Positions 2,107-50,975 of a DNA stretch of 58,418 nt are shown piece after piece. The notes beneath the pieces are model-generated. The model was not told the origin of the DNA. It made no database searches and was given only the letters and a program-made list of their open reading frames with translations. Position numbers and translations under genes: made by a program. The stretch comes from Escherichia phage KS_A3: sequence record PP627278.1; one strand, written 5' to 3'. Within the stretch, counting starts at the first letter, position 1, and each line of letters opens with the position of its first letter.

Positions 2107-3603
2107 ATGGGTATTGATGCAACTCACCCGCTATATAACAAGTGGAAGGACGCATGGGTTAAGTGCAACGACTGCTATGAGGGTGAAGATAAAATTAAGG
2201 AAGAAGGTGTTAAATATCTACCACCTTTAGCTTCCATGATTATTGATGGGATGAATAATCCTAATGATTTGGGCTTTCAACGTTGGCTTGCCTATCGTCT
2301 GCGTGCTAACTTCCCTGACGATTATTCAAGTGCGGTTACAAACAATCTAGGTCTGCTGCACCAGAAGCCTCCTACAATCCAGCTCCCCCCTGAAATGGAA
2401 TACATGCGGGATCTGTGTACTGCGGACGGTGAAGACATTATTGCTCTGCTACGTCGCATCAACGAAATGCAGTTAAAAAATGGACGTTTGGGGCTGCTGC
2501 TGGACTTGCCTAAAGGTGAGGATGTAAATAACAGACCTTATATTAGTGTTTATGATGCTTTATCCATTATCAACTGGGATGATGGTAAAGATGAATTGGG
2601 CAATATCAACTTGAACATGGTTGTTCTGGATGAAAGCGGCCCTGTACGTGTCAATCAGTTTGACTGGAAAGAAGAGAAGCGTTATCGTGTACTACAATTA
2701 GGTCCAATGGACACAGATGAAGTTGCAGGTGGAGCTGTCTACTCCCAACATCTGTTTATTAACAATACCAATTATGATGAAGGGCAAATGATTGCTCCTT
2801 ATTATAAAGGTAATACGCTGGATGAAATTCCTTTCCAGTTTGTCAATACAACAGATATTACCCCAGCACCGGAAGCGCCGCCATTGTTGGGTCTTGCTAA
2901 CATTTGTCTAAGCATGTACCGAAGTGACGCGGATTACCGCCAAAGCTTGCATATGCAGGGTCAGGACACCTTAGTCGTTGTTGGTGGTACTGGGGAGAAT
3001 GGGGATAAAGCCCCTCAACGCATCGGTCCTGGCGCTGTCATTAACGTTGCTATTGGTGGTGACGCTAAATATGTAGGTGTTAGCGGTGACGGTTTGTCCG
3101 AGCAACGTCTCGCACTTGCAGCGGATAAGCAAGAAGCACAAATTAAAGCCGGGCAAATGGTAAACAATACCAAGAGTACGCAGGAATCGGGTGAAGCCAT
3201 GAAAACGCGTATTGCTGCGCGTACAGCTAGTCTGATTCGAATTGCGTATACTGGTGCGGCTGGTCTGGAAAACTTGCTGAAGGTTTGCGCTAAGTGGATG
3301 GGCGCTGATCCCGAGAAAGTTGTGGTTAAGCCTAATCTTGAATTCACCAAGAGCATGTTTAACGGTCAAGACTTTGTTCAAATTATCACTGCACGCAACC
3401 TTAAAGCTCCGATTAGCTTGCAGTCTATTCATGGCTGGCTTGTTGATCAGGGCTTAACCACACTAAGCTTTGAAGAAGAAATGGCAATTCTTGAAGAAGA
3501 GCTTAAGAAGTGGCCTCTGCCTGATGATGCTAAAGCTGATTTAAACGCAGAGCAGCAAGTAAGCAAAGATCCTAAGGAAGACAACGCTTCCGATAAAGAA
3601 TAG
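2107..3603 (+). CDS. portal protein
   Basis: 498 aa ORF directly after terL with SD (GGAGGG) before ATG; acidic C-terminus; assigned by synteny. Confidence 0.6.
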   Translation: MGIDATHPLYNKWKDAWVKCNDCYEGEDKIKEEGVKYLPPLASMIIDGMNNPNDLGFQRWLAYRLRANFPDDYSSAVTNNLGLLHQKPPTIQLPPEMEYMRDLCTADGEDIIALLRRINEMQLKNGRLGLLLDLPKGEDVNNRPYISVYDALSIINWDDGKDELGNINLNMVVLDESGPVRVNQFDWKEEKRYRVLQLGPMDTDEVAGGAVYSQHLFINNTNYDEGQMIAPYYKGNTLDEIPFQFVNTTDITPAPEAPPLLGLANICLSMYRSDADYRQSLHMQGQDTLVVVGGTGENGDKAPQRIGPGAVINVAIGGDAKYVGVSGDGLSEQRLALAADKQEAQIKAGQMVNNTKSTQESGEAMKTRIAARTASLIRIAYTGAAGLENLLKVCAKWMGADPEKVVVKPNLEFTKSMFNGQDFVQIITARNLKAPISLQSIHGWLVDQGLTTLSFEEEMAILEEELKKWPLPDDAKADLNAEQQVSKDPKEDNASDKE

Positions 3604-3698
3604 TTGCAACTTCCAAGTTGATTGGTTTATATTAACGAACACGGGGCTGGGACGGCTCAGCCCCAAAAACGTCACACGGGTGACAACGGAGATAAGAA

Positions 3699-4571
3699 AT
3701 GAAAAAGAGTTCTGTAGCTATTAGTGTTGGTATGGCTTTAATTAATCCACGCGCTCGCGGTGAAGGTGATGTGGAACTGGAATACGAATATGCATCTGCG
3801 GAAGAAATCCCGGCAGAGTTTGCAACTCTTTACGCAGAGCAGGGCGGTAAATACGTTCTTGCAAAAGTTAAAGGTGTAGCCCCTGCTGATAGCGTTCGTC
3901 GTCTGGAAAGTGCATTAGCAAAAGAACGTAACGACCATCGTCAGGTGAAGCAACAGATTAGCGCACTTGGGCGTCCGGTTGAAGAAGTCCTTGCGGACCT
4001 TGATCGTATCCCTCAACTGGAAGCTGCCGCTAACGGTAAAGGTACTCCGGAAGACATCGAAAAGATGGTTAAAGCTCGTCTTGCTCCGCTCGAGCGTCAA
4101 TTGCAAACTGTAGCAGCTGAACGCGATTCCGTTAAGCAGGAAATTGAAGGCTACCGCACTCGCGAAACTAAAGCGAAAATTAAAGACGCAGTTATTGCCG
4201 CTGCATCCGGTGCTAAGCTGCGTCCGTCTGCTATCGAAGATGCGGTGACTTATGCACAGTTGCAAATGACCGTCGACGAGAACGGCAATGTGGTTACGAA
4301 AGATGGGGCGGGTGTAACTCCATACCTAACCCCGGCGGATTGGCTTAACGAGATCCTCCCGAAACGTCCTCACTGGGTTGAGGGTTCTGCTGGTGGCGGT
4401 GCATCTGGTCCGGGTGCTGGCGGTCATCACGGTGAAGACCCATACAGTCACGACGGTTGGAACATCTCTAAGCAGATGAATCTCTGGAAAACTAATCAAT
4501 CTTTAGCTAAACGCTTAGCTGAAAAGAATGGCGTAGATCCGCTGAAGCCTGTACGTCCTGCTAAGAAATAA
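3699..4571 (+). CDS. putative scaffolding protein
   Basis: 290 aa, charged and predicted helical, located between portal and major capsid genes. Confidence 0.45.
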   Translation: MKKSSVAISVGMALINPRARGEGDVELEYEYASAEEIPAEFATLYAEQGGKYVLAKVKGVAPADSVRRLESALAKERNDHRQVKQQISALGRPVEEVLADLDRIPQLEAAANGKGTPEDIEKMVKARLAPLERQLQTVAAERDSVKQEIEGYRTRETKAKIKDAVIAAASGAKLRPSAIEDAVTYAQLQMTVDENGNVVTKDGAGVTPYLTPADWLNEILPKRPHWVEGSAGGGASGPGAGGHHGEDPYSHDGWNISKQMNLWKTNQSLAKRLAEKNGVDPLKPVRPAKK

Positions 4572-18100: not shown

Positions 18101-18275
18101 GATTGAGCGAGCTGCTAATGGTCCTGCCATGGATGTAACCATACCTTTAGCAGTGAAAGGAAAGACAGCGTCGAGCGTAACAATAAGCGTTAAGGAGGAG
18201 TATACGAACGTCTATGGGAGCTACTTGCGCCCGTCTGTAATATTAATGACTCGCGGAACTGGTAGTTGGTCGTAA
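15141..18275 (+). CDS. tail tip / host specificity protein (lambda J-like)
   Basis: 1044 aa; N-terminal Gly/Ala-rich hydrophobic segment reminiscent of the lambda gpI C-terminus; fibronectin-III-like region; position after M/L/K-like genes. Confidence 0.7.
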   Translation: MEGLMPPAIIGAAIALGASAAAAASIISATTALVIGIAATAAGALLTKTPNMNFDAYKGQQERKQVLRAATASRSVVYGTTVASGLLAFAEEEAGDQDEGEWMHLVVVLASHKLEGIETIWLGDDGIDWFGENATWEFHNDRQTVDPFMLKHCPSWKEDMIGKGIAWLRLSLKFDAEKFPSGLPNVKVLKKGRRIYDPRSGQTVFSDNAALVILDYFRTYLKRKDENINWDQFKEAANICDEFVTNADNTTERRYRINGEFEVDEAPAKILDAMLEACGGELTYIGGKHGLLVGAYYGPATMTLDESCIAGDIKIIPETSYKERTNTITGTFVDPKQTYAEADFPPVVVKEWVEKDGGEITQDMDFRFVTSEYQAQRLANIILRRKRVGRTIEVPCNMKGYKFRPGMYVNVTISNIGMKNVEMRVTKWSFDPKGGINLVLRQDFLEMWDDAIGKPMERPDLVDLPSGAIAQPQNLQYQVLQISDVVQGVLTWSNIGQVAYNRVAVRQGGTTVWTAQVPGQNVRVTGLLRGAYTAHVQAVAYSGAISPEAYLEFNIQAPPPPTSIEVQQGYFAISLIPRSADLANVSTQYDFWTSGETRLSSVSTDVVEREATRKGMGTTWTSEGLKNDHTYYWYVRTINAFGSSAFVEVAALCFTTATDLMPQIDSEFKKTETYKELTTEITGVKDGVTQLSQTVVETEQRLSQSVSNVQQSVITLDGVVQDQGVTINEQGQLIDAQGKLIDTQGKTIETVSATVQETSKAVVDLEGNVNAQWGAKVQVDSKGQKYVAGIQLGMEGSGGAVQSYFMVSANNFAIYNPTNSAAELAFAVKNGQVFMKATFIENGTIDSAKIANQIQSTNYANNSAGWMINKNGSAQFNNVTIRGTVYASNGSFTGTVNATSGKFKGTVEATSFVGDVANMCVIAESAIPNTQTTSSRTWTKTFKDSSGSALSKDFVLLLSYSLTAYTSNQASRIIVTANIGGTSITRRIERAANGPAMDVTIPLAVKGKTASSVTISVKEEYTNVYGSYLRPSVILMTRGTGSWS

Positions 18276-18282
18276 TAAATAA

Positions 18283-18310
18283 TTAACCCCTCAAACGAGG
18301 GGTTAATTTT
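18283..18310. terminator. bidirectional hairpin terminator
   Basis: TTAACCCCTC-AAAC-GAGGGGTTAA followed by TTTT on + and by a U-rich run on -; sits between convergent genes. Confidence 0.5.
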
Positions 18311-18543
18311 CAATAATCAATCACACAGTTTGAAGGTGAGCCAATTCGTCGGTATTCGTGATCAATTTCATGGCACCATTGCCCAGTCATTGGAAGCTTT
18401 TCGGTATCATAAATTAAAGAACCGTTACCATCGCGATCCAAAGGTTTTGGAATGACACCGGAATTAGGTTTACCAGTATTTAAACCATTACCACATGCAG
18501 TAAGGGACAAACATAATGCCAGCATAATTAGGGCGTGTTTCAT
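18310..18543 (-). CDS. small lipoprotein, candidate receptor-blocking superinfection exclusion protein (Llp/Cor-like)
   Basis: 77 aa, signal peptide with lipobox (LSLTAC), SD AAGGAG; opposite strand, wedged between J-like and tail fibre genes. Confidence 0.55.
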   Translation of the reverse strand: MKHALIMLALCLSLTACGNGLNTGKPNSGVIPKPLDRDGNGSLIYDTEKLPMTGQWCHEIDHEYRRIGSPSNCVIDY

Positions 18544-25497: not shown

Positions 25498-26450
25498 TAG
25501 ACACGTTCTCCAATTAACACACCGCGAAGATTTTCCCCAAAGAATGCGCAAGGTTGCGGATATAAACTAAAGTCCGCAGTCTTAACCACATTTTCGAGTA
25601 ATAACAGGATGTCGATATTGTAAACTCCCGTTATTGATCTGTCCTGCAATACGAAGCTTGCACCTTCTGCATCATCGTAATGAGTACGCGCTAGACCGTT
25701 TTCAATATATACGCGAGGACGATCTTCCGCAAAAGGTTTGATTTTATGCAATCCCTCAAAAAGACCTGGATCAACAGGATGTGCATTGCATTGAACATTT
25801 AAAATACGACGTATATCGGGCCACTCCGCATCAATAAGCTGTGTTCGCAACCAGCGACCTTCCGGATAATGAAATGTGACATTGTTCTTGCTAACCTGAA
25901 TATGTGTCGGGTTAGCTTTAATGCGCAGTATTTCTTTGATAGCAACAGACGGTATTATGCAGTCAATAGGGAATTGATTACCGAACCAATATTCCGCAAT
26001 AGTGACGTTATTTGTAGCAAACAAGCTACCGTTATTGATCAGAATACCGCAAGCCCACGGACGGGAAGCATCGGACCCAACAAATGGAGCAACGGACTTT
26101 ACACCATGCACGAAGCGAGCGCCGTCTATTTCGTACAAATCGCCTTCAGGGAATACGTGCGGCGTTTCTTTATCAATGCAGCGTATAGCAACACGAAACG
26201 GACCGGACTTGATATTTAACTTACCGTTAGCCATCATTGTTAGCTGCACTGTTTCATCGCAGTTCGAAATAGCTTTAATCATAGGCCCAGCTTCGGGCTT
26301 GCAATCAATATCCAGCTCAATAGGGCTACCCAGTGCAATAACACCGTTAAAGCCCTGTACCTGTCCGTCACGAATAAGAAAACTGGTAAGCCCTTCTACC
26401 AGTTCCTTCTTCGCTACGGAGCCTTGAACAAATTTAAGAGCGTCTAACAT
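25497..26450 (-). CDS. hypothetical protein, translationally coupled to DNA polymerase (possible processivity factor)
   Basis: 317 aa; TAATG overlap with polymerase start; function not established from sequence. Confidence 0.4.
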   Translation of the reverse strand: MLDALKFVQGSVAKKELVEGLTSFLIRDGQVQGFNGVIALGSPIELDIDCKPEAGPMIKAISNCDETVQLTMMANGKLNIKSGPFRVAIRCIDKETPHVFPEGDLYEIDGARFVHGVKSVAPFVGSDASRPWACGILINNGSLFATNNVTIAEYWFGNQFPIDCIIPSVAIKEILRIKANPTHIQVSKNNVTFHYPEGRWLRTQLIDAEWPDIRRILNVQCNAHPVDPGLFEGLHKIKPFAEDRPRVYIENGLARTHYDDAEGASFVLQDRSITGVYNIDILLLLENVVKTADFSLYPQPCAFFGENLRGVLIGERV

Positions 26451-26677
26451 TAGCGGTCCTCGATTGCTCTAATTGTGGTTAAATCTAATTCACAGGTTGG
26501 AGGGTATCCATAAAGTCCCATTTGTTTTCCTTGTGCATTAAACCATGTACCTGACGGATCCTGCCACTGCTTAGGTGTCTTGTGGAGAAATACTACTCTG
26601 TTTTCACCGTAATAATTAATTCTTACTCCTGTGTGAGTATATTTACGTTTACCTTTTGGTCTTCTTAAGTTAGCCAT
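26450..26677 (-). CDS. hypothetical protein
   Basis: 75 aa basic ORF, ATGA-type overlap with neighbours. Confidence 0.4.
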   Translation of the reverse strand: MANLRRPKGKRKYTHTGVRINYYGENRVVFLHKTPKQWQDPSGTWFNAQGKQMGLYGYPPTCELDLTTIRAIEDR

Positions 26678-27597
26678 CAGAACAACTCCATTACACGATC
26701 ACGGAATGTGCCGTCATGGGTAGCGTTAATGTTTGCAGCAATTACACCATACGCCCATAAGTTGAAGGCAGCACGTGATTCATAGATTGTTGATAAACGT
26801 TCGTAAGTGAAACCGTTTTGCTCAAGGTATTTAAGGACAGCGTCTTGTTCAATTTCAGTTAATGTTGAAACATGCTTACCAAAATGATGGCGGTCCGGTG
26901 ACTTATCTGATACGCGCATTGGTCCCCACGGAGGGGTAACCACACTTCCAAACGCTGCCGCTTGAATCCAGGAGGATGAGTCACAGCTATACCACGGATA
27001 ACGCTCCATAATGGTTGTGGACGTAATACCAAACGCATGAAGTTTAATTTTAGCACGTCCGCTACCGTCGCAAATATATTTGTCCCACATGCGGTCCAGC
27101 CAAGTTTTAAGCGTGTCCGTTGAACGTCCTACCATGCCCCCAATGGTGATATATTCGTAGTTCTTCATGTAGTATTCAAGATAGCGGAAGTCCTCCCCAA
27201 AGTGAAAGCAAGGTAACGGTTTAGCACCGCGTGCTTCCATTTCAAGCTGGTTACGGTAGGTTTGCAACGGGTCACCAATACCGTCGAGCACCGACGCCAT
27301 TACAGCACCATCTTCTACGCGAAGGATGTCTTTGTTACGCTTGATGTATTCGCAGTATTCAACAATATCAATGTGAGCACCCAAAGAGTGCGCGGAGAAT
27401 GCACCTGAGTCGAGAAACACTTTAGCCCCATCCGCACGCATTTGATCAACATACTTCTGACGTCCAACGTAGTGGTATGATTCCAAAATATTTGGAAGGC
27501 TATTAACAATGTCTTTTTCCCGATCGTTTAACTTTTCATATCGTTGTTGACCAGCTTTATAGCCGTTGGTATATACCGCAGCGACAAACAGATGCAT
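26677..27597 (-). CDS. dpdA: DNA-guanine transglycosylase (tRNA-guanine transglycosylase-like, DpdA family)
   Basis: 306 aa; FLDSGAFS motif resembling the catalytic DSGG(F/Y)Q region of TGT enzymes; sits in operon with queC/D/E and folE. Confidence 0.65.
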   Translation of the reverse strand: MHLFVAAVYTNGYKAGQQRYEKLNDREKDIVNSLPNILESYHYVGRQKYVDQMRADGAKVFLDSGAFSAHSLGAHIDIVEYCEYIKRNKDILRVEDGAVMASVLDGIGDPLQTYRNQLEMEARGAKPLPCFHFGEDFRYLEYYMKNYEYITIGGMVGRSTDTLKTWLDRMWDKYICDGSGRAKIKLHAFGITSTTIMERYPWYSCDSSSWIQAAAFGSVVTPPWGPMRVSDKSPDRHHFGKHVSTLTEIEQDAVLKYLEQNGFTYERLSTIYESRAAFNLWAYGVIAANINATHDGTFRDRVMELF

Positions 27598-28154
27598 TAT
27601 TCCACCTCAAATTTATTACGCTTAGATCTGTTTTCTTCAATAGATAAGTATTGTAGGTTACTAAGGACGTGAAGTCCACTGACTCTTTTACCGCAAAGAG
27701 GTATAATATGATCAACCTCCATCCCATCCGGGCAGTTAGCGTAGAACAATTCAATTTGTTCTTTTTCAGACCACGCAGGGATTCTTAAAGACCTTTTCTT
27801 ATGCACTTCAAGGGAATGTAACCTTGATCTAGCTTTACCGTAATCTGTCTTAGCCCAGCGTTTCAGCCTTTCTTTATTTTGTTCTTTACCTTTCTCAGTA
27901 GAATTATAAGCAGCTTTTGAACGTTGAAGGGCTTCTTTTCCTTTCTGTGACTTATGGTATCTCTTAATAGCATTCCTTGCAGCTTCTGTTTTATTGTAAA
28001 TACGCATTCTTTTCTTTCGTGCTTCTCTGTCACAAGTAATACAATAGCCATCTACAGTCTTTCTTTCAGAAACATGACCTTTCGCACAAGGCTTACCAGT
28101 AAAATAATATTTCAAACCTCTTTCTTTTGCTTCAGCTCTTGTGATAATTTCCAT
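27597..28154 (-). CDS. HNH homing endonuclease
   Basis: 185 aa; Cys-rich zinc-binding N-terminus, DHIIPL...N HNH motif; inserted between dpdA and folE. Confidence 0.7.
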   Translation of the reverse strand: MEIITRAEAKERGLKYYFTGKPCAKGHVSERKTVDGYCITCDREARKKRMRIYNKTEAARNAIKRYHKSQKGKEALQRSKAAYNSTEKGKEQNKERLKRWAKTDYGKARSRLHSLEVHKKRSLRIPAWSEKEQIELFYANCPDGMEVDHIIPLCGKRVSGLHVLSNLQYLSIEENRSKRNKFEVE

Positions 28155-28224
28155 TGTCTTATACCAACTAAAAAGCCCATACCAGTATTATGACCGATAT
28201 GGGCTTGATCTGTAAAGCTATCTA

Positions 28225-28866
28225 TTATTTACAAGCTTCAAGGAACTCCCGGCGCCATTCTTTACCAATATCGCTACCATGCTCCAGTTCTGTAGCGCCC
28301 CGGAACGCTTTGGTAATAGTAGAGCTGCCACATACCTGCTTAACTCCGCGCGACTCCATGCACATATGCTTGGCGTCAACATAAACACATACAGCTTTCG
28401 GGTTTAAATGCTCCTGAATAGCGTCTGCAATCTGGTTAGTAAGACGTTCCTGAACTTGCAGTCGACGACTAAAAGCATCCACAACGCGAGACAGCTTACT
28501 AAGCCCAACAATCTTCCCATTGGGGACATAACCCACGACAGCATGACCGATGATAGGAGCCATGTGATGCTCACAATGACTATACACAGGGATATCACGG
28601 ACAATGACCATTTCATTGGTGTTTTCCGCCCCATCCTCAAAGGTTTTAAACAGACCAGCGATATCTACATCGTAACCGCTAAACCACGTTGCATAAGCTT
28701 TCGCTACACGCTCCGGAGTTTCCTCCAGCCCTGGGCGCAGAACCGCGCTAACTTCAATTTGGGATAGTAAAGTACGCACAGCGTTAGCAATACGGAATTG
28801 AACACCTTCACTATTAATACTATATTTAGACATGGTTTGCAGTTTCCTTGTTGTTAATGTGGTCAT
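28225..28866 (-). CDS. folE: GTP cyclohydrolase I
   Basis: 213 aa; SHCEHHM and GLSKL/QVQERLT motifs of FolE. Confidence 0.85.
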   Translation of the reverse strand: MTTLTTRKLQTMSKYSINSEGVQFRIANAVRTLLSQIEVSAVLRPGLEETPERVAKAYATWFSGYDVDIAGLFKTFEDGAENTNEMVIVRDIPVYSHCEHHMAPIIGHAVVGYVPNGKIVGLSKLSRVVDAFSRRLQVQERLTNQIADAIQEHLNPKAVCVYVDAKHMCMESRGVKQVCGSSTITKAFRGATELEHGSDIGKEWRREFLEACK

Positions 28867-28868
28867 AC

Positions 28869-29378
28869 TTACAGACTATAGTTTACGTGGCACTTCGAAG
28901 TTTCTTCGATGGTGCATTCTACAAGTTGAACACCATGTTCGTCAAGTAGCAGTGGCCCAATTACGTTGACCATATATGCAGCTAAGTTTTCCGCAGTAGG
29001 ATTGAATGGTAAAGATACCAGTGAATGAAAAAACGCATCACCATCAAGCTCACTTATACTCGGTCTGGAAGACATCTTCCAATCCTGGCTTACTAAATTT
29101 TTCAACCCGTCAATTAGCAAGTCTTTTTCCCAGTGCAGGAACTTATGATCCCAATTATCTTCCAACCACTGGCAGAGCGTAGTTTTAACCACACTAAAGT
29201 CGATAACTCGCCCAACTTCGTCCAGCAAAATACTATTCATTTCTTGCGACCCTTTTTTCGGCGCAACCTTAAAGTGAAACTTATAGTTATGACCGTGAAG
29301 GTGACGACACTTACTTTCATGACCCACAACACGGTGACCAGCGCAAATTTCATGTGAACGAATTACTGTATAGCTCAT
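28869..29378 (-). CDS. queD: 6-carboxy-5,6,7,8-tetrahydropterin synthase
   Basis: 169 aa; CAGHR and CRHLHGH zinc-binding motifs of QueD/PTPS. Confidence 0.8.
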   Translation of the reverse strand: MSYTVIRSHEICAGHRVVGHESKCRHLHGHNYKFHFKVAPKKGSQEMNSILLDEVGRVIDFSVVKTTLCQWLEDNWDHKFLHWEKDLLIDGLKNLVSQDWKMSSRPSISELDGDAFFHSLVSLPFNPTAENLAAYMVNVIGPLLLDEHGVQLVECTIEETSKCHVNYSL

Positions 29379-29379
29379 T

Positions 29380-29649
29380 TTAATCCTCTTCTACTCTATT
29401 CATAAATTCCAAATGACGACGCATAGTTTCTTCTTTTGTGGAAGAATTAAAATGTGACCAACCGTTATCTAAGAAGTATGCCCAGTAATATTCGCCATAT
29501 TTCTTCCGCATAGCTGGGATGGGGCATTTCCTTCTTTCAAGCTTAGGATTCTGCGATTTTATATAAGCTTGTTTTTCTTTAAGACTTAATGCTTCAAACC
29601 AATCAGCTAGCTCGTGAAACTTTAAATGACTTGGAGGTACAGGAATCAT
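29380..29649 (-). CDS. hypothetical protein within 7-deazaguanine cluster
   Basis: 89 aa ORF, coupled to neighbours. Confidence 0.4.
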   Translation of the reverse strand: MIPVPPSHLKFHELADWFEALSLKEKQAYIKSQNPKLERRKCPIPAMRKKYGEYYWAYFLDNGWSHFNSSTKEETMRRHLEFMNRVEED

Positions 29650-30263
29650 TTTAACACCTCTTTAGATTGTTCAATTTCTAACGCACGCTGTGCGGATGCA
29701 ATAATGTCTTTCAAATCTTCTACCACATGCTTATGACCGCGTTCGCCAGGCTGCAACGCCTTTTTAATCAAATGTTGTAAAGCTGGGTTAGTTGTCTTCC
29801 AAGCTTCCAAGACATCATACACGTCCACGATGCATTTTACAACATTGCCGTTTTCATCTTTACCATAAATAACTTTCTGGTATTTGTTTAGATTGTCGTC
29901 TTTATTCATAGCAGATCGTATATCCCAATCCTTTCCGTATACGCCCAGTCCATCAATAGCGAAACTTTCAGAAGTCACTTTAAATCCATTTTCACCGGCT
30001 TGTCTAACGTAATCTTCTGCGACAATATAACGCCAAGATATAACCGAATCCCTTTCTAACGGTATTACGTTATCACAGGATTTTTTATACCAGTCCCATC
30101 CTTGCCTATGATTTTTCTTAAGAGAACCGTCAGCTAATTGAACTTCAAACTGTTCGTTTTGAAGAAAAATGGGCATTCCTTTCCCATCGTGCTTGTGCCA
30201 AATTTTATTAAGATTATCTTTCATTTTACGCTCTCGCTGTACGTGAATGAACTTCGTAAACAA
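29646..30263 (-). CDS. hypothetical protein within 7-deazaguanine cluster
   Basis: 205 aa soluble protein; no motif recognised. Confidence 0.45.
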   Translation of the reverse strand: MFTKFIHVQRERKMKDNLNKIWHKHDGKGMPIFLQNEQFEVQLADGSLKKNHRQGWDWYKKSCDNVIPLERDSVISWRYIVAEDYVRQAGENGFKVTSESFAIDGLGVYGKDWDIRSAMNKDDNLNKYQKVIYGKDENGNVVKCIVDVYDVLEAWKTTNPALQHLIKKALQPGERGHKHVVEDLKDIIASAQRALEIEQSKEVLK

Positions 30264-42234: not shown

Positions 42235-42819
42235 CTATTTCAAATAGCGGGAAGTCATAATTGGATGCAAAGACACTTCTTCCTCAGATGTAACCACATT
42301 GGCAGACGTGCCTGTGGACCCAAAGCCATTAGCACCGCGCTCAGTAGTCTTAAGCTCGTCCACTTCTACAAGTTGCACGCTGGGCAACTTAATAAGCATA
42401 GCTTGCGCAACACGGCTACCGTGCTCAACAATGAAGCCTTCTTCATTATCAATGGTAAGCTTAATCTTAACTTCCCCAGTGTAATCGCTGTCAATAACGC
42501 CCACGCAGTTAGCTAGTCGCACGTCATTTTTAAATGCGTGCCCGCTGCGGGAATAGATCATAAGCGCGTAGCCTTCAGGGATATCAAATGCTAATCCTGT
42601 GCGAATAACTTCACTTTCTCTGAAGTACACCTGATTATACCCATCCGCACGTAAATCCGCGTGCAGGTCAAAACAAGCTGCCCCAGCAGTAGCGAACGCT
42701 GGTAGAATTGCCGTATCAGTTAACCGCTTGACACCGACAACAGGAGGTTCAAAGAACGTAGCTATTGCTTGTGCATCAATTTTAAAACAGCCTTCTGTGT
42801 TATTTAATACGTCAGTCAT
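42235..42819 (-). CDS. dut: dUTP diphosphatase
   Basis: 194 aa; dUTPase motifs AGAACFDL, RSG, GVIDSDYTGE, TERGANGFGSTG. Confidence 0.8.
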   Translation of the reverse strand: MTDVLNNTEGCFKIDAQAIATFFEPPVVGVKRLTDTAILPAFATAGAACFDLHADLRADGYNQVYFRESEVIRTGLAFDIPEGYALMIYSRSGHAFKNDVRLANCVGVIDSDYTGEVKIKLTIDNEEGFIVEHGSRVAQAMLIKLPSVQLVEVDELKTTERGANGFGSTGTSANVVTSEEEVSLHPIMTSRYLK

Positions 42820-42851: not shown

Positions 42852-43373
42852 TTAACCATTGTTGGAAAATTCACCGTGCAAAATTGCACGCATTTCCTTC
42901 AGCCATTGTGTCGCTTTATTTTTACCTTCATCATTAAATGGAAAATACCTATAATAGTTTTTACCATTCAGTCGAATTTGCGCTAACCAACTATTGCTGG
43001 TTTTAGATTTGTTATGTGTAAGACCTTTAACCCCGCTTGAATTGTTACTGTATTTAAATCTATTATGTGCGTTCTGACTAGAATTGCAAGCCCTCAAATT
43101 GTATTGAGCATTATTCAGTTTATTGCAGTCATCATGATCAATTTCTTCAGGTTCTTCATCATAGAGCATTTTCCAGATTATGCGGTGAACAAAATATGAA
43201 ATGCCATCAATCTTTGTTCTAAGATGACCAGTTGTATGAACCCATCCAACGCAAGATCCCTTTGGAGCTCTGTTGCTTCTATGAATCTTCCATGTTAATG
43301 CACCCGTCGACGGATCATAGTCAAATAGCTCCAGAAGCTGCTCTTGTGTAAGGTGTATAGGCTTCGCTTTCAT
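42852..43373 (-). CDS. HNH homing endonuclease
   Basis: 173 aa; IDHDDCNKLNN HNH motif. Confidence 0.65.
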   Translation of the reverse strand: MKAKPIHLTQEQLLELFDYDPSTGALTWKIHRSNRAPKGSCVGWVHTTGHLRTKIDGISYFVHRIIWKMLYDEEPEEIDHDDCNKLNNAQYNLRACNSSQNAHNRFKYSNNSSGVKGLTHNKSKTSNSWLAQIRLNGKNYYRYFPFNDEGKNKATQWLKEMRAILHGEFSNNG

Positions 43374-43840
43374 GACATGAGTGACCCCCTCTCAATCAAG
43401 TAGCATTTCGCGTGCGCTTTAAAAATAATGCGGTAGTCATCAAGACTAATTTCCGCGCGGATGGAATCTTTAACTTCATACCACTGCCATTCACCATTAC
43501 TGAAGACAACCGGATTAAGTGGTAGAACAACCTTCCATCCTTTACGTTCTATTTTATACATCAGAACTGGATATCTGCCAAGCTCTTTAGCAGATTGAAC
43601 AGTCTGCTTCCACCATGTGTTTACTTGTGGTGTAGCATGGTTTTTTACTTCAACTGCATGGTGACATGTATTGCTAATGTCGCAACCACCGACCGCACTT
43701 TGATTCTGGTTACGCTGCGCAATAGGTTTTTCCGGTAACTGCATCCCCAGCTCTGCGTAGATTTCGGCATAAATTGCATTAAAGAAATCACATACTTCCC
43801 GCTCACCGCGTTGACCTTTAGCGCGAATATTTACTGCCAT
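43370..43840 (-). CDS. putative Holliday-junction resolvase-like nuclease (Hjc/RecU-type)
   Basis: KGQRGEREV...D...EVK pattern; start set to ATG 43840 with SD GGAG (track start 43870). Confidence 0.35.
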   Translation of the reverse strand: MAVNIRAKGQRGEREVCDFFNAIYAEIYAELGMQLPEKPIAQRNQNQSAVGGCDISNTCHHAVEVKNHATPQVNTWWKQTVQSAKELGRYPVLMYKIERKGWKVVLPLNPVVFSNGEWQWYEVKDSIRAEISLDDYRIIFKAHAKCYLIERGSLMS

Positions 43841-43880
43841 GTTTGTCTCCATAACTTTAATGTAAAACACTTCATAAAGA

Positions 43881-49894: not shown

Positions 49895-50377
49895 TTATGC
49901 GTCCAGTCCGTGGTTGGCGTGAAATTTGTAATGCTCTTCCGCTTGTTTACGGGCCTGTTTTGCGTCCTCTATAGTATCATATAAACCTAGATACTTTTTC
50001 AATCCGTTTATTTGAATGTAAGCCTGAAATTTACATGCCTTTTTATTAAAGTAAACTCCTGTTACTCCGGTAGAGTTATTTATTGCCCTGCTAAGATTTT
50101 TACTATTATCGCTTGGCAACACTAAGCGCAAATTCTCTATGCGGTCGTCCCATGTACAATGATTAATATGGTCTATTTGATGCCCTTCCGGTATCGGGCC
50201 TTTATGCAACTCCCATACTAACCTTGAACGACGATATAGTTTTCCCTTGTATCCTATCAGGATGTATCCGCGCTTATTTGGTACACCAGCTTTACTACCG
50301 ATAGAAATCTGTTTAGCTGGTTTTATTTTCCAAAATAATTCTCCGTTTTGATAGCTGAAGATATTATTTAAGTCCAT
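49895..50377 (-). CDS. HNH homing endonuclease with AP2-like DNA-binding domain
   Basis: 160 aa; IDHINHCTWDDRIENL HNH motif; GVTGVYFNKK...YLGLYDTIEDA AP2-like segment. Confidence 0.65.
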   Translation of the reverse strand: MDLNNIFSYQNGELFWKIKPAKQISIGSKAGVPNKRGYILIGYKGKLYRRSRLVWELHKGPIPEGHQIDHINHCTWDDRIENLRLVLPSDNSKNLSRAINNSTGVTGVYFNKKACKFQAYIQINGLKKYLGLYDTIEDAKQARKQAEEHYKFHANHGLDA

Positions 50378-50975
50378 GATAAGTTCTCCAAGCGTAGAAC
50401 TGAATGGCGACCGTTGTCCCGTTGTAAGAAGGCATTGCAGCTTTCATTTCTTTCAGCTCCGGCGTGCGGCCCAGTTCGGCTAAAAGTTTATCGCCCATTG
50501 CCCACACTTCGGCGGTTTTTCCTTTCAGAGGCTTGCGAGCGCCATTTTTGAAATCGCAGCGAGCAGCTTTTGCATCCTGTTTTGGCGCGGCAGCTTTTGG
50601 CTCTTCAATTTTGATCTCAGAAACCTGCGTGGCAGCTTTTGCGTGTTTCATATCTTTCTCTTCCTCCTGCTCCAGAGCTTCGAGGCAGCTTTTGACGATT
50701 TCCGGATTTACCATCGGGCGCAGTACCGAGACGCTGGCAGCTGGCGCGGCGGTTGGTGCTGGGACTTTCTGCTCCGGCTGTTGCGCTTTTTTATGGTCGC
50801 GCAGTACCTGAAGCACTTCCTTCTCGACGATGTAAAAACCAATCTCATCCTGATGGATTAACTGCTCGTGTGCGTCGCGTGCAACCTGGCCCCAGCGGGT
50901 CTTAAGGGCGCGGCGTGCATTCGTTTTCATGGTGTAACGCATTTTGTCCTGTTCGCGGTGAGTTACTTTAGACAT
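50364..50975 (-). CDS. hypothetical protein
   Basis: 203 aa, SD AAGGAG. Confidence 0.45.
   Translation of the reverse strand: MSKVTHREQDKMRYTMKTNARRALKTRWGQVARDAHEQLIHQDEIGFYIVEKEVLQVLRDHKKAQQPEQKVPAPTAAPAASVSVLRPMVNPEIVKSCLEALEQEEEKDMKHAKAATQVSEIKIEEPKAAAPKQDAKAARCDFKNGARKPLKGKTAEVWAMGDKLLAELGRTPELKEMKAAMPSYNGTTVAIQFYAWRTYHGLK

What the first reader, a model, noticed from the sequence alone, without database searches (positions are those of the whole stretch)
27597..28154. HNH homing endonuclease inserted between dpdA and folE; three HNH genes in total
An HNH ORF with a zinc-binding N-terminus sits between two pathway genes with overlapping stop/start (TAATG). Two further HNH genes lie at 42852-43373 and 49895-50377, the latter with an AP2-like domain. 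Free-standing homing endonucleases mark mobile insertions; one inside a modification operon raises the question whether it must tolerate or exploit modified DNA.
Basis: partly seen in the sequence, partly recalled or inferred. Interest (0 to 1): 0.4.

Follow-up and report, generated by a model that had tools for sequence, protein, structure and literature searches.

The report
Mobile HNH endonuclease gene beside dpdA
A small nuclease gene between two DNA-modification genes of this E. coli phage behaves as a selfish mobile homing-endonuclease cassette: only a few close relatives carry it, and it has moved between them together with the start of the neighbouring dpdA gene. This is an ordinary kind of element, documented here in unusual detail.

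Summary
The window is essentially Escherichia phage KS_S4, a Seuratvirus in the Queuovirinae. The 185-aa ORF at 27597-28154 (-) is real. Its stop overlaps the dpdA start (TAATG). The GenBank record calls it hypothetical, and no Pfam, NCBIfam or PADLOC model matches it. Family conservation, an AlphaFold model and fold matches show an N-terminal Cys-His-Cys-Cys zinc knuckle, a helical linker and a C-terminal HNH nuclease domain.

Only 4 of about 31 Seuratvirus genomes carry it. Others have an empty site, an unrelated 68-aa ORF, or a different HNH+NUMOD3 endonuclease. Against the diverged carrier STP-SP5, folE differs by 23% and distal dpdA by 13-20%. The cassette plus the first 111 nt of dpdA differs by under 1%, which indicates recent lateral transfer with co-conversion.

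That 111-nt dpdA block is a distinct low-GC haplotype, 33-39% diverged, found only with this HNH lineage. Homologues at 44-46% identity occupy the same slot sporadically in Nonagvirus and Nipunavirus.

The other two HNH genes are also clean presence/absence insertions. Cleavage activity, the target site and tolerance of 7-deazaguanine are inferred, not shown.

Verdict: a free-standing homing endonuclease, a new member of a known kind.

The parts
27597..28154 (-). HNH1: 185-aa free-standing HNH endonuclease ORF (CDS0035, 'hypothetical protein', in PP627282.1)
   Evidence: ORF. Record annotation. phrog_1035, 2e-16. Family alignment. AF2 model with pLDDT 92.7. HNH fold matches. GC 36.9% against 44.3% for the genome.
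28020..28154 (-). N-terminal module of about 45 aa with an invariant Cys23-His27-Cys38-Cys41 zinc knuckle; presumed DNA-binding domain
   Evidence: Invariant columns in 37 sequences. phrog_1081 matches residues 1-50 alone. BFVD matches 41-59 columns long to this size of module in other phage proteins, including a GIY-YIG group I intron endonuclease. pLDDT 96-98.
27600..27785 (-). C-terminal HNH (beta-beta-alpha-metal) nuclease domain, residues about 124-185, with D148-H149, N166 and N175
   Evidence: Invariant residues. Aligned to the Cas9 HNH catalytic motif. Foldseek top hits are HNH domains.
27602..27608 (-). GAGGTGG Shine-Dalgarno sequence for dpdA, lying inside the 3' end of HNH1, 4 nt before the overlapping TAATG
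   Evidence: Sequence. The empty site uses a different GGAGG-containing leader. Stop/start overlaps of 1, 4 or 8 nt recur in homologous loci.
28155..28166 (-). Cassette-specific 12-nt leader TGGTATAAGACA. The left boundary of the insertion lies right after the shared TTTTTAGT.
   Evidence: Multiple alignment of HNH+ and HNH- Seuratviruses.
28173..28206 (-). Hairpin with T-run (terminator-like) after folE, conserved in all Seuratviruses with or without the HNH; left-hand recombination anchor
   Evidence: Conservation. 0/70 mismatches in the intergenic region against STP-SP5, SHIN8 and ECP2304.
27487..27597 (-). First 111 nt (37 codons) of dpdA: a divergent low-GC haplotype block completely linked to this HNH lineage. 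Candidate immunity (target-site) variant and co-converted flank.
   Evidence: 33-39% nt divergence and 13/37 aa changes against HNH- alleles, compared with 3-5% and 0-1/269 for the rest of dpdA. This allele is at >=98.8% only in the 4 HNH+ phages and at 73-76% in 26 other Seuratvirus genomes. GC 37.8% against 43-46%. Also shared by L093, which carries a 46%-identical HNH allele.
27300..28224 (-). Tract of about 925 nt nearly identical between KS_S4 and the otherwise roughly 20%-diverged phage STP-SP5 (laterally transferred segment with a gradient into dpdA)
   Evidence: Mismatches against STP-SP5: folE 23.2%, intergenic 0/70, HNH 0.9%, dpdA nt 1-111 0.9%, nt 112-300 3.2%, nt 301-921 12.9%, next 1 kb 20.2%. 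Sliding identity.
26677..27597 (-). dpdA (7-deazaguanine DNA transglycosylase), downstream neighbour
28225..28866 (-). folE (GTP cyclohydrolase I), upstream neighbour
   Evidence: PF01227, 1.3e-63.
42852..43373 (-). HNH2: 173-aa HNH_3-type endonuclease between a PDDEXK_15 nuclease gene and dUTPase. The segment 42864-43405 is absent from CAjan and Seurat.
   Evidence: HNH_3 6e-9. phrog_99 5e-51. Present at >=98.8% aa only in KS_S4, Skure and SHIN8. Indel boundaries. GC 37.4%.
49895..50377 (-). HNH3: 160-aa HNH_3-type endonuclease with a weak AP2-like C-terminal region. The segment 49915-50387 is replaced by 7 nt in SHIN8.
   Evidence: HNH_3 5.9e-16. AP2 E=0.026. phrog_99 1e-62. 100% aa only in KS_S4, CAjan and WildeMaa. 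Indel. GC 38.3%.

Best explanation
HNH1 is a free-standing homing endonuclease gene of a lineage specialised for the folE|dpdA junction of Queuovirinae phages.

Proposed mechanism:
1. In a cell co-infected by an HNH+ and an HNH- phage, the protein binds DNA through its zinc-knuckle N-terminal module. Its HNH domain cuts or nicks the HNH- allele within the first 110-140 nt of dpdA.
2. The break is repaired by recombination using the HNH+ genome as template.
3. This copies in the cassette and a variable length of flank. The left end lies in the conserved post-folE hairpin. The right end lies somewhere in dpdA.
4. The HNH+ genome is protected because its own dpdA 5' block is a diverged haplotype.
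5. The cassette does no harm to the operon, because its 3' end supplies a Shine-Dalgarno sequence and an overlapping stop/start (TAATG) for dpdA.

Shown here: the ORF and its domain architecture; the sporadic distribution; the empty and alternatively filled sites; lateral transfer with a flank gradient; complete linkage to the dpdA 5' haplotype; the foreign base composition.

Inferred: nuclease activity, the position of the target, immunity of the linked haplotype, and the ability to act on dPreQ0-containing DNA or on newly replicated, not yet modified DNA.

HNH2 and HNH3 are independent HNH_3-type homing endonuclease insertions of the common phage kind.
For: Domain architecture and catalytic residues.

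Distribution: the gene is present at >=97.8% aa only in KS_S4, SHIN8, ECP2304 and STP-SP5, that is 4 of about 31 distinct Seuratvirus genomes.

States of the same slot in other phages:
- Empty in L007.
- An unrelated 68-aa ORF in CAjan and L008.
- A different HNH_3+NUMOD3 endonuclease in slur01.

Lateral transfer: KS_S4 against STP-SP5 shows 0.9% divergence in the cassette plus dpdA nt 1-111, against 23% in folE and 13-20% further into and beyond dpdA.

Linkage: the dpdA 5' haplotype is 33-39% diverged from HNH- alleles, is present only with the HNH, and is low in GC like the HNH itself.

Independent replicates:
- In Nipunavirus, NP1, L015 and L020 carry a homologue. L024 and L033 have a precise empty site with 99% identical folE. 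L020 has a 1-nt frameshift in the catalytic motif. L024 has a dense substitution patch at dpdA nt 85-140.
- In Nonagvirus, JenP1-type and FritzHoffmann-type HNH alleles are only 56% identical beside 95%-identical DpdA. The DpdA differences are confined to the first 45 aa.

Wider sample: only 8 of about 78 assessable IMG/VR dpdA loci have the gene in the slot. Two have it immediately 3' of dpdA, and most have folE abutting dpdA.

Phylogeny: HNH and DpdA pairwise identities are only weakly correlated (rho 0.25), with clear incongruences.

Dispensability: CAjan lacks the gene, yet its DNA is modified at GA and GGC (PMC7544227).

Family range: more distant family members (30-38% identity) sit next to helicase, polymerase and RNase H genes in unrelated phages.
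Against: - There is no biochemical or genetic evidence of cleavage or of biased inheritance.
- The target site is inferred only from where polymorphism clusters.
- The closest clade of the family is found almost always immediately 5' of dpdA with overlapping stop/start, in three genera and in 3 of 4 sampled metagenomic homologues. This could also mean a selected function coupled to DpdA.
- L093 is a Seuratvirus contig with 90-98% identical flanks and the same dpdA 5' haplotype, yet its HNH allele is only 46% identical and has conserved ends. The HNH+ haplotype is therefore old, not a fresh invasion.
- There is no obvious Shine-Dalgarno sequence before the HNH1 ATG.
- L033 is HNH- but has the same DpdA residues as HNH+ NP1 around codons 29-45. 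The idea of a resistant patch is not uniformly supported.
Confidence: 0.75

Rival explanations
1. The gene is an accessory partner of DpdA: an ancestral, vertically inherited gene of the Queuovirinae 7-deazaguanine cluster. It would nick or open DNA for base exchange, or degrade unmodified host or competitor DNA, and would have been lost repeatedly.
For: Homologues at 44-46% identity occupy the identical slot with overlapping stop/start in Seuratvirus, Nonagvirus and Nipunavirus. 3 of 4 sampled metagenomic homologues are also immediately 5' of dpdA. The HNH divergence between genera (44-51%) is not wildly beyond that of clamp or QueD (44-52%). Two deeply diverged alleles share the same flanks in Seuratvirus.
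Against: The gene is absent from about 27 of 31 Seuratvirus genomes and about 70 of 78 IMG/VR dpdA loci that keep the full pathway. CAjan lacks it and is fully modified at GA and GGC. There is a clear lateral-transfer signature into a 20%-diverged background. Its GC content is foreign. Within Nonagvirus, two alleles are 56% identical next to 95%-identical DpdA. One copy is frameshifted. Copies also occur 3' of dpdA or elsewhere. An unrelated HNH+NUMOD3 endonuclease sits in the same slot in slur01.
Confidence: 0.1
2. The cassette is passive cargo shuffled by ordinary homologous recombination between the conserved hairpin and conserved dpdA sequence. Its nuclease serves another purpose, such as exclusion of competing phages, host DNA breakdown or a terminase-associated HNH role, and does not promote its own spread.
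For: The transfer tract and linkage show only recombination, not nuclease-driven conversion. The slot also holds non-nuclease cargo: a 68-aa ORF in CAjan and a metallophosphoesterase-like ORF in L097. Queuovirinae genomes are generally mosaic, for example in folE and dUTPase alleles.
Against: The architecture, a modular DNA-binding domain plus HNH, and the family's positions next to conserved replication genes in unrelated phages are those of homing endonucleases. The diverged block sits exactly at the adjacent gene's 5' end in three genera. The gene is 25 kb from the terminase genes.
Confidence: 0.12
3. The ORF is a decaying remnant that is no longer active in KS_S4, at a late stage of the homing cycle.
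For: A frameshifted copy exists in L020. There is no clear ribosome-binding site.
Against: The ORF is intact with all invariant catalytic and zinc-ligand residues. It is 97.8-100% conserved in four phages from Japan, China and Malaysia.
Confidence: 0.03

Closest known systems
Free-standing homing endonucleases of T-even phages that spread by 'intronless homing' (e.g. SegG next to gene 32, MobE in the nrd region). Comparison made from my own knowledge of the literature, not retrieved here.
   Same: An intergenic nuclease gene between conserved genes. Sporadic presence among close relatives. Transfer together with flanking sequence (co-conversion). A diverged flank on the carrier genome. Operation in phages whose DNA is chemically modified.
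   Different: Seg proteins are GIY-YIG enzymes. This protein is HNH with a different N-terminal zinc module. The host phage carries 7-deazaguanine rather than glucosyl-hmC. No cleavage or cross data exist for this gene.
HNH domains of the Cas9 / Cas8-HNH / McrA / Gme-HNH type (solved structures)
   Same: A D-H...N...N catalytic motif aligned to SaCas9 HNH. The best fold matches are 9shx, 9siu, 8w1p, 4h9d and Cas9 HNH domains.
PHROG 1035 ('endonuclease VII' label) and PHROG 1081
   Same: The full length matches phrog_1035 (2e-16). The N-terminal 50 aa match phrog_1081 (2e-18).
   Different: The 'endonuclease VII' label is an annotation, not a tested function. No T4 endonuclease VII-like match was seen in the PDB searches.
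HNH_3 / HNH-AP2 phage homing endonucleases (PHROG 99; I-HmuI-like), which apply to HNH2, HNH3 and the slur01 slot gene
   Same: HNH2 and HNH3 hit PF13392 and phrog_99 strongly. The slur01 gene has HNH_3 plus NUMOD3.
   Different: HNH1 does not match HNH_3 and belongs to a separate HNH clade.

Membership tests
HNH (beta-beta-alpha-metal) nuclease superfamily | Catalytic His preceded by Asp, a structural Asn and a metal-ligand Asn/His in a beta-beta-alpha fold | tested here: met
   D148-H149, N166 and N175 are invariant in 37 sequences. The model shows beta-beta-alpha at E145-149, E167-171 and H172-178. Top Foldseek and profile hits are HNH domains.
HNH (beta-beta-alpha-metal) nuclease superfamily | Significant match to a curated HNH profile (Pfam PF01844, PF13392 and the like) | tested here: not met
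   PF01844 scores E=0.21, 12.2 bits against a cutoff of 21.4. No NCBIfam hit. All 120 listed homologues have no precomputed Pfam domain.
Free-standing homing endonuclease gene (HEG) | Sporadic presence/absence among close relatives at a fixed site in or between conserved genes | tested here: met
   4 of about 31 Seuratvirus genomes. Empty sites in L007, L024 and L033. 8 of about 78 IMG/VR loci.
Free-standing homing endonuclease gene (HEG) | Evidence of horizontal movement with co-conversion of flanking DNA | tested here: met
   KS_S4 against STP-SP5: 0.9% divergence in the cassette and dpdA nt 1-111, grading to 3.2%, 12.9% and 20%. HNH and DpdA identities are incongruent.
Free-standing homing endonuclease gene (HEG) | Target-site difference between carrier and non-carrier alleles | tested here: inconclusive
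   A completely linked diverged block at dpdA nt 1-111 and patches in Nipunavirus and Nonagvirus fit this feature. The actual recognition site is unknown.
Free-standing homing endonuclease gene (HEG) | Site-specific cleavage of the HEG-less allele and super-Mendelian inheritance in crosses | not testable with these tools
   Requires enzyme assays and mixed infections.
Intron- or intein-encoded endonuclease | ORF embedded in a self-splicing intron or in frame within a host protein | tested here: not met
   No Rfam family, including group I and II introns, anywhere in the window. The ORF has its own start and stop between folE and dpdA.
7-deazaguanine (dPreQ0) modification pathway component | Co-occurrence with dpdA/folE/queCDE in all phages that make the modification | tested here: not met
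   Absent from most Queuovirinae loci, including CAjan, whose modification was shown experimentally.
HNH-AP2 homing endonucleases (for HNH3) | HNH_3 domain followed by an AP2 DNA-binding domain | tested here: inconclusive
   HNH_3 at 5.9e-16 is met. AP2 scores only E=0.026, 15.3 bits, below the cutoff of 33.3. phrog_99 covers the full length at 1e-62.

The most novel reading that the evidence does not exclude
The dpdA-slot HNH lineage is specifically adapted to 7-deazaguanine genomes. It would either cleave dPreQ0/dG+-containing DNA that resists most restriction enzymes, or discriminate unmodified from modified DNA, for instance by cutting competitor or nascent DNA before DpdA acts. The 13-residue change it carries into the DpdA N-terminus might also alter DpdA behaviour. 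Either would make it a modification-aware homing or exclusion nuclease and a possible tool enzyme for deazaguanine DNA.
Probability: 0.12. Interest if true: 0.65.

Novelty: new member of a known kind. Interest (0 to 1): 0.35.

Why it matters
- It assigns a function to a gene deposited as 'hypothetical' in all four Seuratvirus carriers examined here (KS_S4, SHIN8, ECP2304, STP-SP5) and in several Nonagvirus and Nipunavirus records. It also defines a Pfam-invisible HNH family: a CHCC zinc knuckle, a helical linker and an HNH domain.
- It identifies the folE|dpdA junction as a recombination and insertion hotspot in Queuovirinae. This matters for comparative genomics, because the first 37 codons of DpdA are not vertically inherited. 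It also matters for engineering these phages, since the slot tolerates cargo.
- The candidate target region holds 14-16 GA/GGC modification sites per 111 nt. The element therefore offers a concrete test of whether a homing endonuclease can act on dPreQ0-modified DNA. T-even phage endonucleases already show that homing in modified genomes is possible, so the expected result is not surprising.

Tried and rejected
- Pfam, NCBIfam and PADLOC scans of HNH1 gave nothing significant.
- The afdb50 fold library was unavailable.
- I tested the idea that CAjan's 68-aa slot ORF is a truncated relative of HNH1, since phrog_1081 is 67 aa. It is not: the sequences are unrelated.
- I tested whether HNH2 is linked to a diverged dUTPase flank in the way HNH1 is linked to dpdA. 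It is not: Skure carries HNH2 next to a CAjan-like dUTPase.
- Intron or ribozyme context: no Rfam hits and no tRNAs.
- Promoter-like hits around the cassette were not above shuffled expectation (9 found against 7.3 expected), so no promoter is claimed.
- Literature searches (DpdA plus homing endonuclease; Seuratvirus plus HNH; SHIN8; Queuovirinae plus homing endonuclease) found no description of this gene.
- I considered a terminase-associated HNH role and rejected it on position: the terminase genes are at 1-2095.
Full report
**Identity of the window.** The region 26000-30000 is 100% identical to Escherichia phage KS_S4 (PP627282.1; Seuratvirus, Queuovirinae; sewage, Japan). Over its whole length the window differs from that record only by one copy of a 111-nt repeat near 18120-18230, one small indel and a few substitutions. 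Past about 18.2 kb, window coordinates equal record coordinates minus 111. This phage group replaces part of its guanines with 7-deazaguanine (dPreQ0), using FolE, QueD, QueE, QueC and DpdA (BASEL paper PMC8594841; CAjan study PMC7544227).

**The observation.** An ATG-to-TAA ORF of 185 aa lies at 27597-28154 on the minus strand. It sits between folE (28225-28866) and dpdA (26677-27597), and its stop overlaps the dpdA start as TAATG. The deposited record calls it a hypothetical protein. The 70-nt gap after folE holds a 14-bp hairpin followed by a T-run.

They match Pfam HNH_3 (6e-9 and 5.9e-16) and PHROG 99. The AP2-like label for the third gene rests on a sub-threshold hit (E=0.026). Ten other hypothetical proteins showed no nuclease domain.

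**Is HNH1 really an HNH nuclease?**
- Curated profile libraries do not recognise it. Pfam HNH scores E=0.21, NCBIfam and PADLOC return nothing, and none of 120 listed homologues carries a precomputed Pfam domain.
- PHROGs match it to phrog_1035 (2e-16) and match its first 50 residues to phrog_1081.
- An alignment of 37 family members shows three parts:
  - An N-terminal module with invariant C23, H27, C38 and C41, which forms a zinc knuckle.
  - A poorly conserved basic helical linker of variable length.
  - A C-terminal block with invariant D148-H149, N166, N175, K178 and N180.
- A profile of this alignment finds Cas9 HNH domains first in the PDB, aligned on exactly these residues (E=0.023).
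- An AlphaFold2 model is confident (pLDDT 92.7).
- Its best Foldseek/PDB matches are all HNH domains: Cas8-HNH, Cas9 and the Gme HNH nickase, at probability 0.96-0.98.
- In BFVD it matches phage 'HNH nuclease domain' proteins down to E=2e-10. It also gives short matches of the N-terminal module in other proteins, including a GIY-YIG intron endonuclease.

I accept the HNH assignment and the zinc-binding N-terminus. The individual matches to solved structures are weak.

**Distribution within Seuratvirus.** By tblastn, the protein occurs at >=97.8% identity in only four phage genomes: KS_S4, SHIN8, ECP2304 and STP-SP5. About 27 other distinct Seuratvirus genomes lack it.

The slot is not uniformly empty in those phages:
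- An IMG/VR genome (L007) has a bare junction: hairpin, then AGTCATTGGAGGTTTATTTAAGAT, then the dpdA ATG.
- CAjan and L008 carry an unrelated 68-aa ORF.
- slur01 carries a different endonuclease with HNH_3 and NUMOD3 motifs, which also alters the folE 3' end.

The multiple alignment puts the left boundary of the cassette directly after the shared hairpin and TTTTTAGT.

**The right boundary is not the dpdA start codon.** The first 111 nt of dpdA in the four carriers form a separate haplotype. It differs from every non-carrier allele at 33-39% of positions (13 of 37 codons). The remaining 810 nt differ by only 3-5%, with 0-1 amino acid changes. A database search with this segment finds it at >=98.8% only in the four carriers and at 73-76% in 26 other Seuratvirus genomes. 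Its GC content (37.8%) resembles that of the HNH gene (36.9%). The non-carrier alleles have 43-46% and the genome 44.3%.

**Lateral transfer.** STP-SP5 is a diverged Seuratvirus. Its mismatches against KS_S4 are as follows (sliding windows):

| Segment | Divergence |
|---|---|
| folE | 23.2% |
| Intergenic region | 0 of 70 |
| HNH gene | 0.9% |
| dpdA nt 1-111 | 0.9% |
| dpdA nt 112-300 | 3.2% |
| dpdA nt 301-921 | 12.9% |
| Next 1 kb | 20.2% |

ECP2304 shows the same sharp left edge at the folE stop. A tract of about 925 nt has therefore moved recently between diverged genomes. It has a fixed left end in the conserved hairpin and a graded right end inside dpdA. This is the expected footprint of double-strand-break repair from a break in or near the 5' part of dpdA.

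**Other genera.** Homologues of 44-46% identity lie in the same slot, again overlapping the dpdA start:
- Nonagvirus: JenP1, SE1, SP8 and FritzHoffmann.
- Nipunavirus: NP1, PaMx25 and others.

At first sight this favours an ancestral pathway gene, but several results argue against that:
- Among 80 IMG/VR dpdA loci, the family is in the slot in only 8. It lies immediately 3' of dpdA in 2 and elsewhere in 2. In most loci folE abuts dpdA.
- In Nipunavirus, L024 and L033 have precise empty sites beside folE that is 93-99% identical to NP1. L020 has a 1-nt insertion that breaks the catalytic motif. L024 has a dense substitution patch at dpdA nt 85-140.
- In Nonagvirus, the JenP1 and FritzHoffmann alleles are 56% identical next to 95%-identical DpdA, and all DpdA differences fall in the first 45 residues.
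- HNH and DpdA pairwise identities are poorly correlated (rho 0.25).
- CAjan lacks the gene and is modified at GA and GGC.

Metagenomic look-ups add a nuance. L093 is a Seuratvirus contig with 90-98% identical flanks and the same dpdA 5' haplotype. Its HNH allele is only 46% identical, and only the first 23 or so residues and the last codons are conserved. Two other homologues also sit 5' of dpdA, and one lies in an unrelated 177-kb contig. The HNH+ haplotype is therefore an old, segregating lineage tied to this site, not a single recent arrival.

**Mechanism.** The best reading (confidence 0.75) is a free-standing homing endonuclease lineage specialised on the folE|dpdA junction.
1. The enzyme would cut HNH-less alleles in the 5' part of dpdA. 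Polymorphism in all three genera clusters around codons 1-45, just before and into the invariant ILESYHYVG motif.
2. Repair from the carrier genome would copy in the cassette and flank.
3. The carrier's own diverged block would confer immunity.
4. The cassette preserves dpdA expression through an internal GAGGTGG Shine-Dalgarno sequence and the overlapping TAATG.

Every step after 'the protein has an HNH fold' is inference from sequence patterns.

Rivals:
- A DpdA-coupled pathway function (0.10).
- Passive cargo whose nuclease serves another role (0.12).
- An inactive remnant (0.03).

**The modified-DNA question.** The non-carrier dpdA 5' block contains 14-16 GA/GGC sites, counting both strands, in 111 nt. 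Any 20-30-bp recognition site there would carry several dPreQ0 residues on mature DNA. The enzyme must therefore either tolerate them or act on freshly replicated DNA. This cannot be decided here. From my own knowledge, T-even phage homing endonucleases show that homing in hypermodified genomes is feasible.

**HNH2 and HNH3.**
- HNH2 is present only in KS_S4, Skure and SHIN8. The segment 42864-43405 is missing from CAjan and Seurat, with 98-99% identical sequence on the upstream side. The neighbouring dUTPase is only 79% identical to CAjan's, but this is not linked to HNH2, because Skure has HNH2 with a CAjan-like dUTPase.
- HNH3 is 100% identical in KS_S4, CAjan and WildeMaa only. In SHIN8, 49915-50387 is replaced by 7 nt.
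- Both are low in GC (37-38%).

The three genes have three different distributions, so they were gained or lost independently.

**Verdict.** This is a new, previously unannotated member of a well-known kind of selfish element. It comes with an unusually clear comparative footprint and a specific, testable target prediction. Interest is moderate to low (0.35). The literature searches found no prior description of this gene.

Noticed in passing
window 18120-18230: The window has one copy of a 111-nt segment that is present twice in tandem in PP627282.1 (record 18120-18341), inside the 3' end of the central tail fibre J gene. The window is therefore a near-identical variant of the deposited KS_S4 genome, not the record itself. 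One further small indel lies after 50377.
   Followed up: partly
L006 (slur01) 3463-3921: A different 152-aa endonuclease (HNH_3 / His-Me finger plus NUMOD3) occupies the same folE|dpdA slot and changes the last residues of FolE. The slot is a hotspot for unrelated homing endonucleases.
   Followed up: partly
L002 (CAjan) 2093-2299; L008: An unrelated 68-aa ORF with no Pfam match fills the slot in CAjan-type phages. Its function is unknown.
   Followed up: partly
L093 4001-4576: A Seuratvirus metagenomic contig carries an HNH allele only 46% identical to HNH1. The first 23 or so residues, the last codons, the junction and the dpdA 5' haplotype are conserved. The middle of the gene has diverged or been exchanged far faster than its ends.
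   Followed up: partly
L020 about 3900 (equivalent to NP1 locus L004 position 3326): A one-base insertion inside the VDHVIPL catalytic motif of the Nipunavirus homologue truncates the ORF. This is either a decaying copy or a metagenome assembly error.
   Followed up: no
L024 dpdA nt 85-140; L010-L013 and L077 dpdA: HNH-less relatives carry local changes around the otherwise invariant DpdA motif ILESYHYVG. L024 has VLESFHYVS with about 20 substitutions in 55 nt. HNH-less Nonagviruses have ILESWHYVG. These may be resistance variants of the endonuclease target.
   Followed up: partly
window 43370-43870 (-): The gene annotated 'RusA-like Holliday junction resolvase' in the record matches Pfam PDDEXK_15 (phage putative PDDEXK endonuclease, 1.8e-13), not RusA.
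   Followed up: no
window 42235-42819 (-) and L100, L101, L091, L102: The dUTPase gene is mosaic among Seuratviruses. Its N-terminal part is 79% identical between KS_S4 and CAjan, against 98% for the flanks. It has a variable C-terminal insertion: 194 aa in KS_S4, 218 in CAjan and Skure, and 251 with a Cys-rich insert in SHIN8.
   Followed up: partly
L097 2514-3008; L094 3594-3998: In other Queuovirinae-like contigs the slot holds an extra ORF upstream of the HNH: a metallophosphoesterase-like protein of 164 aa in L097 and an unknown 134-aa ORF in L094.
   Followed up: no
window 28187-28216 (-): A sigma-70-like match (TTTACA, 18 nt, CATAAT) overlaps the conserved post-folE hairpin, with the -10 hexamer in the loop. 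The scan as a whole was not above shuffled expectation, so its significance is unclear.
   Followed up: no
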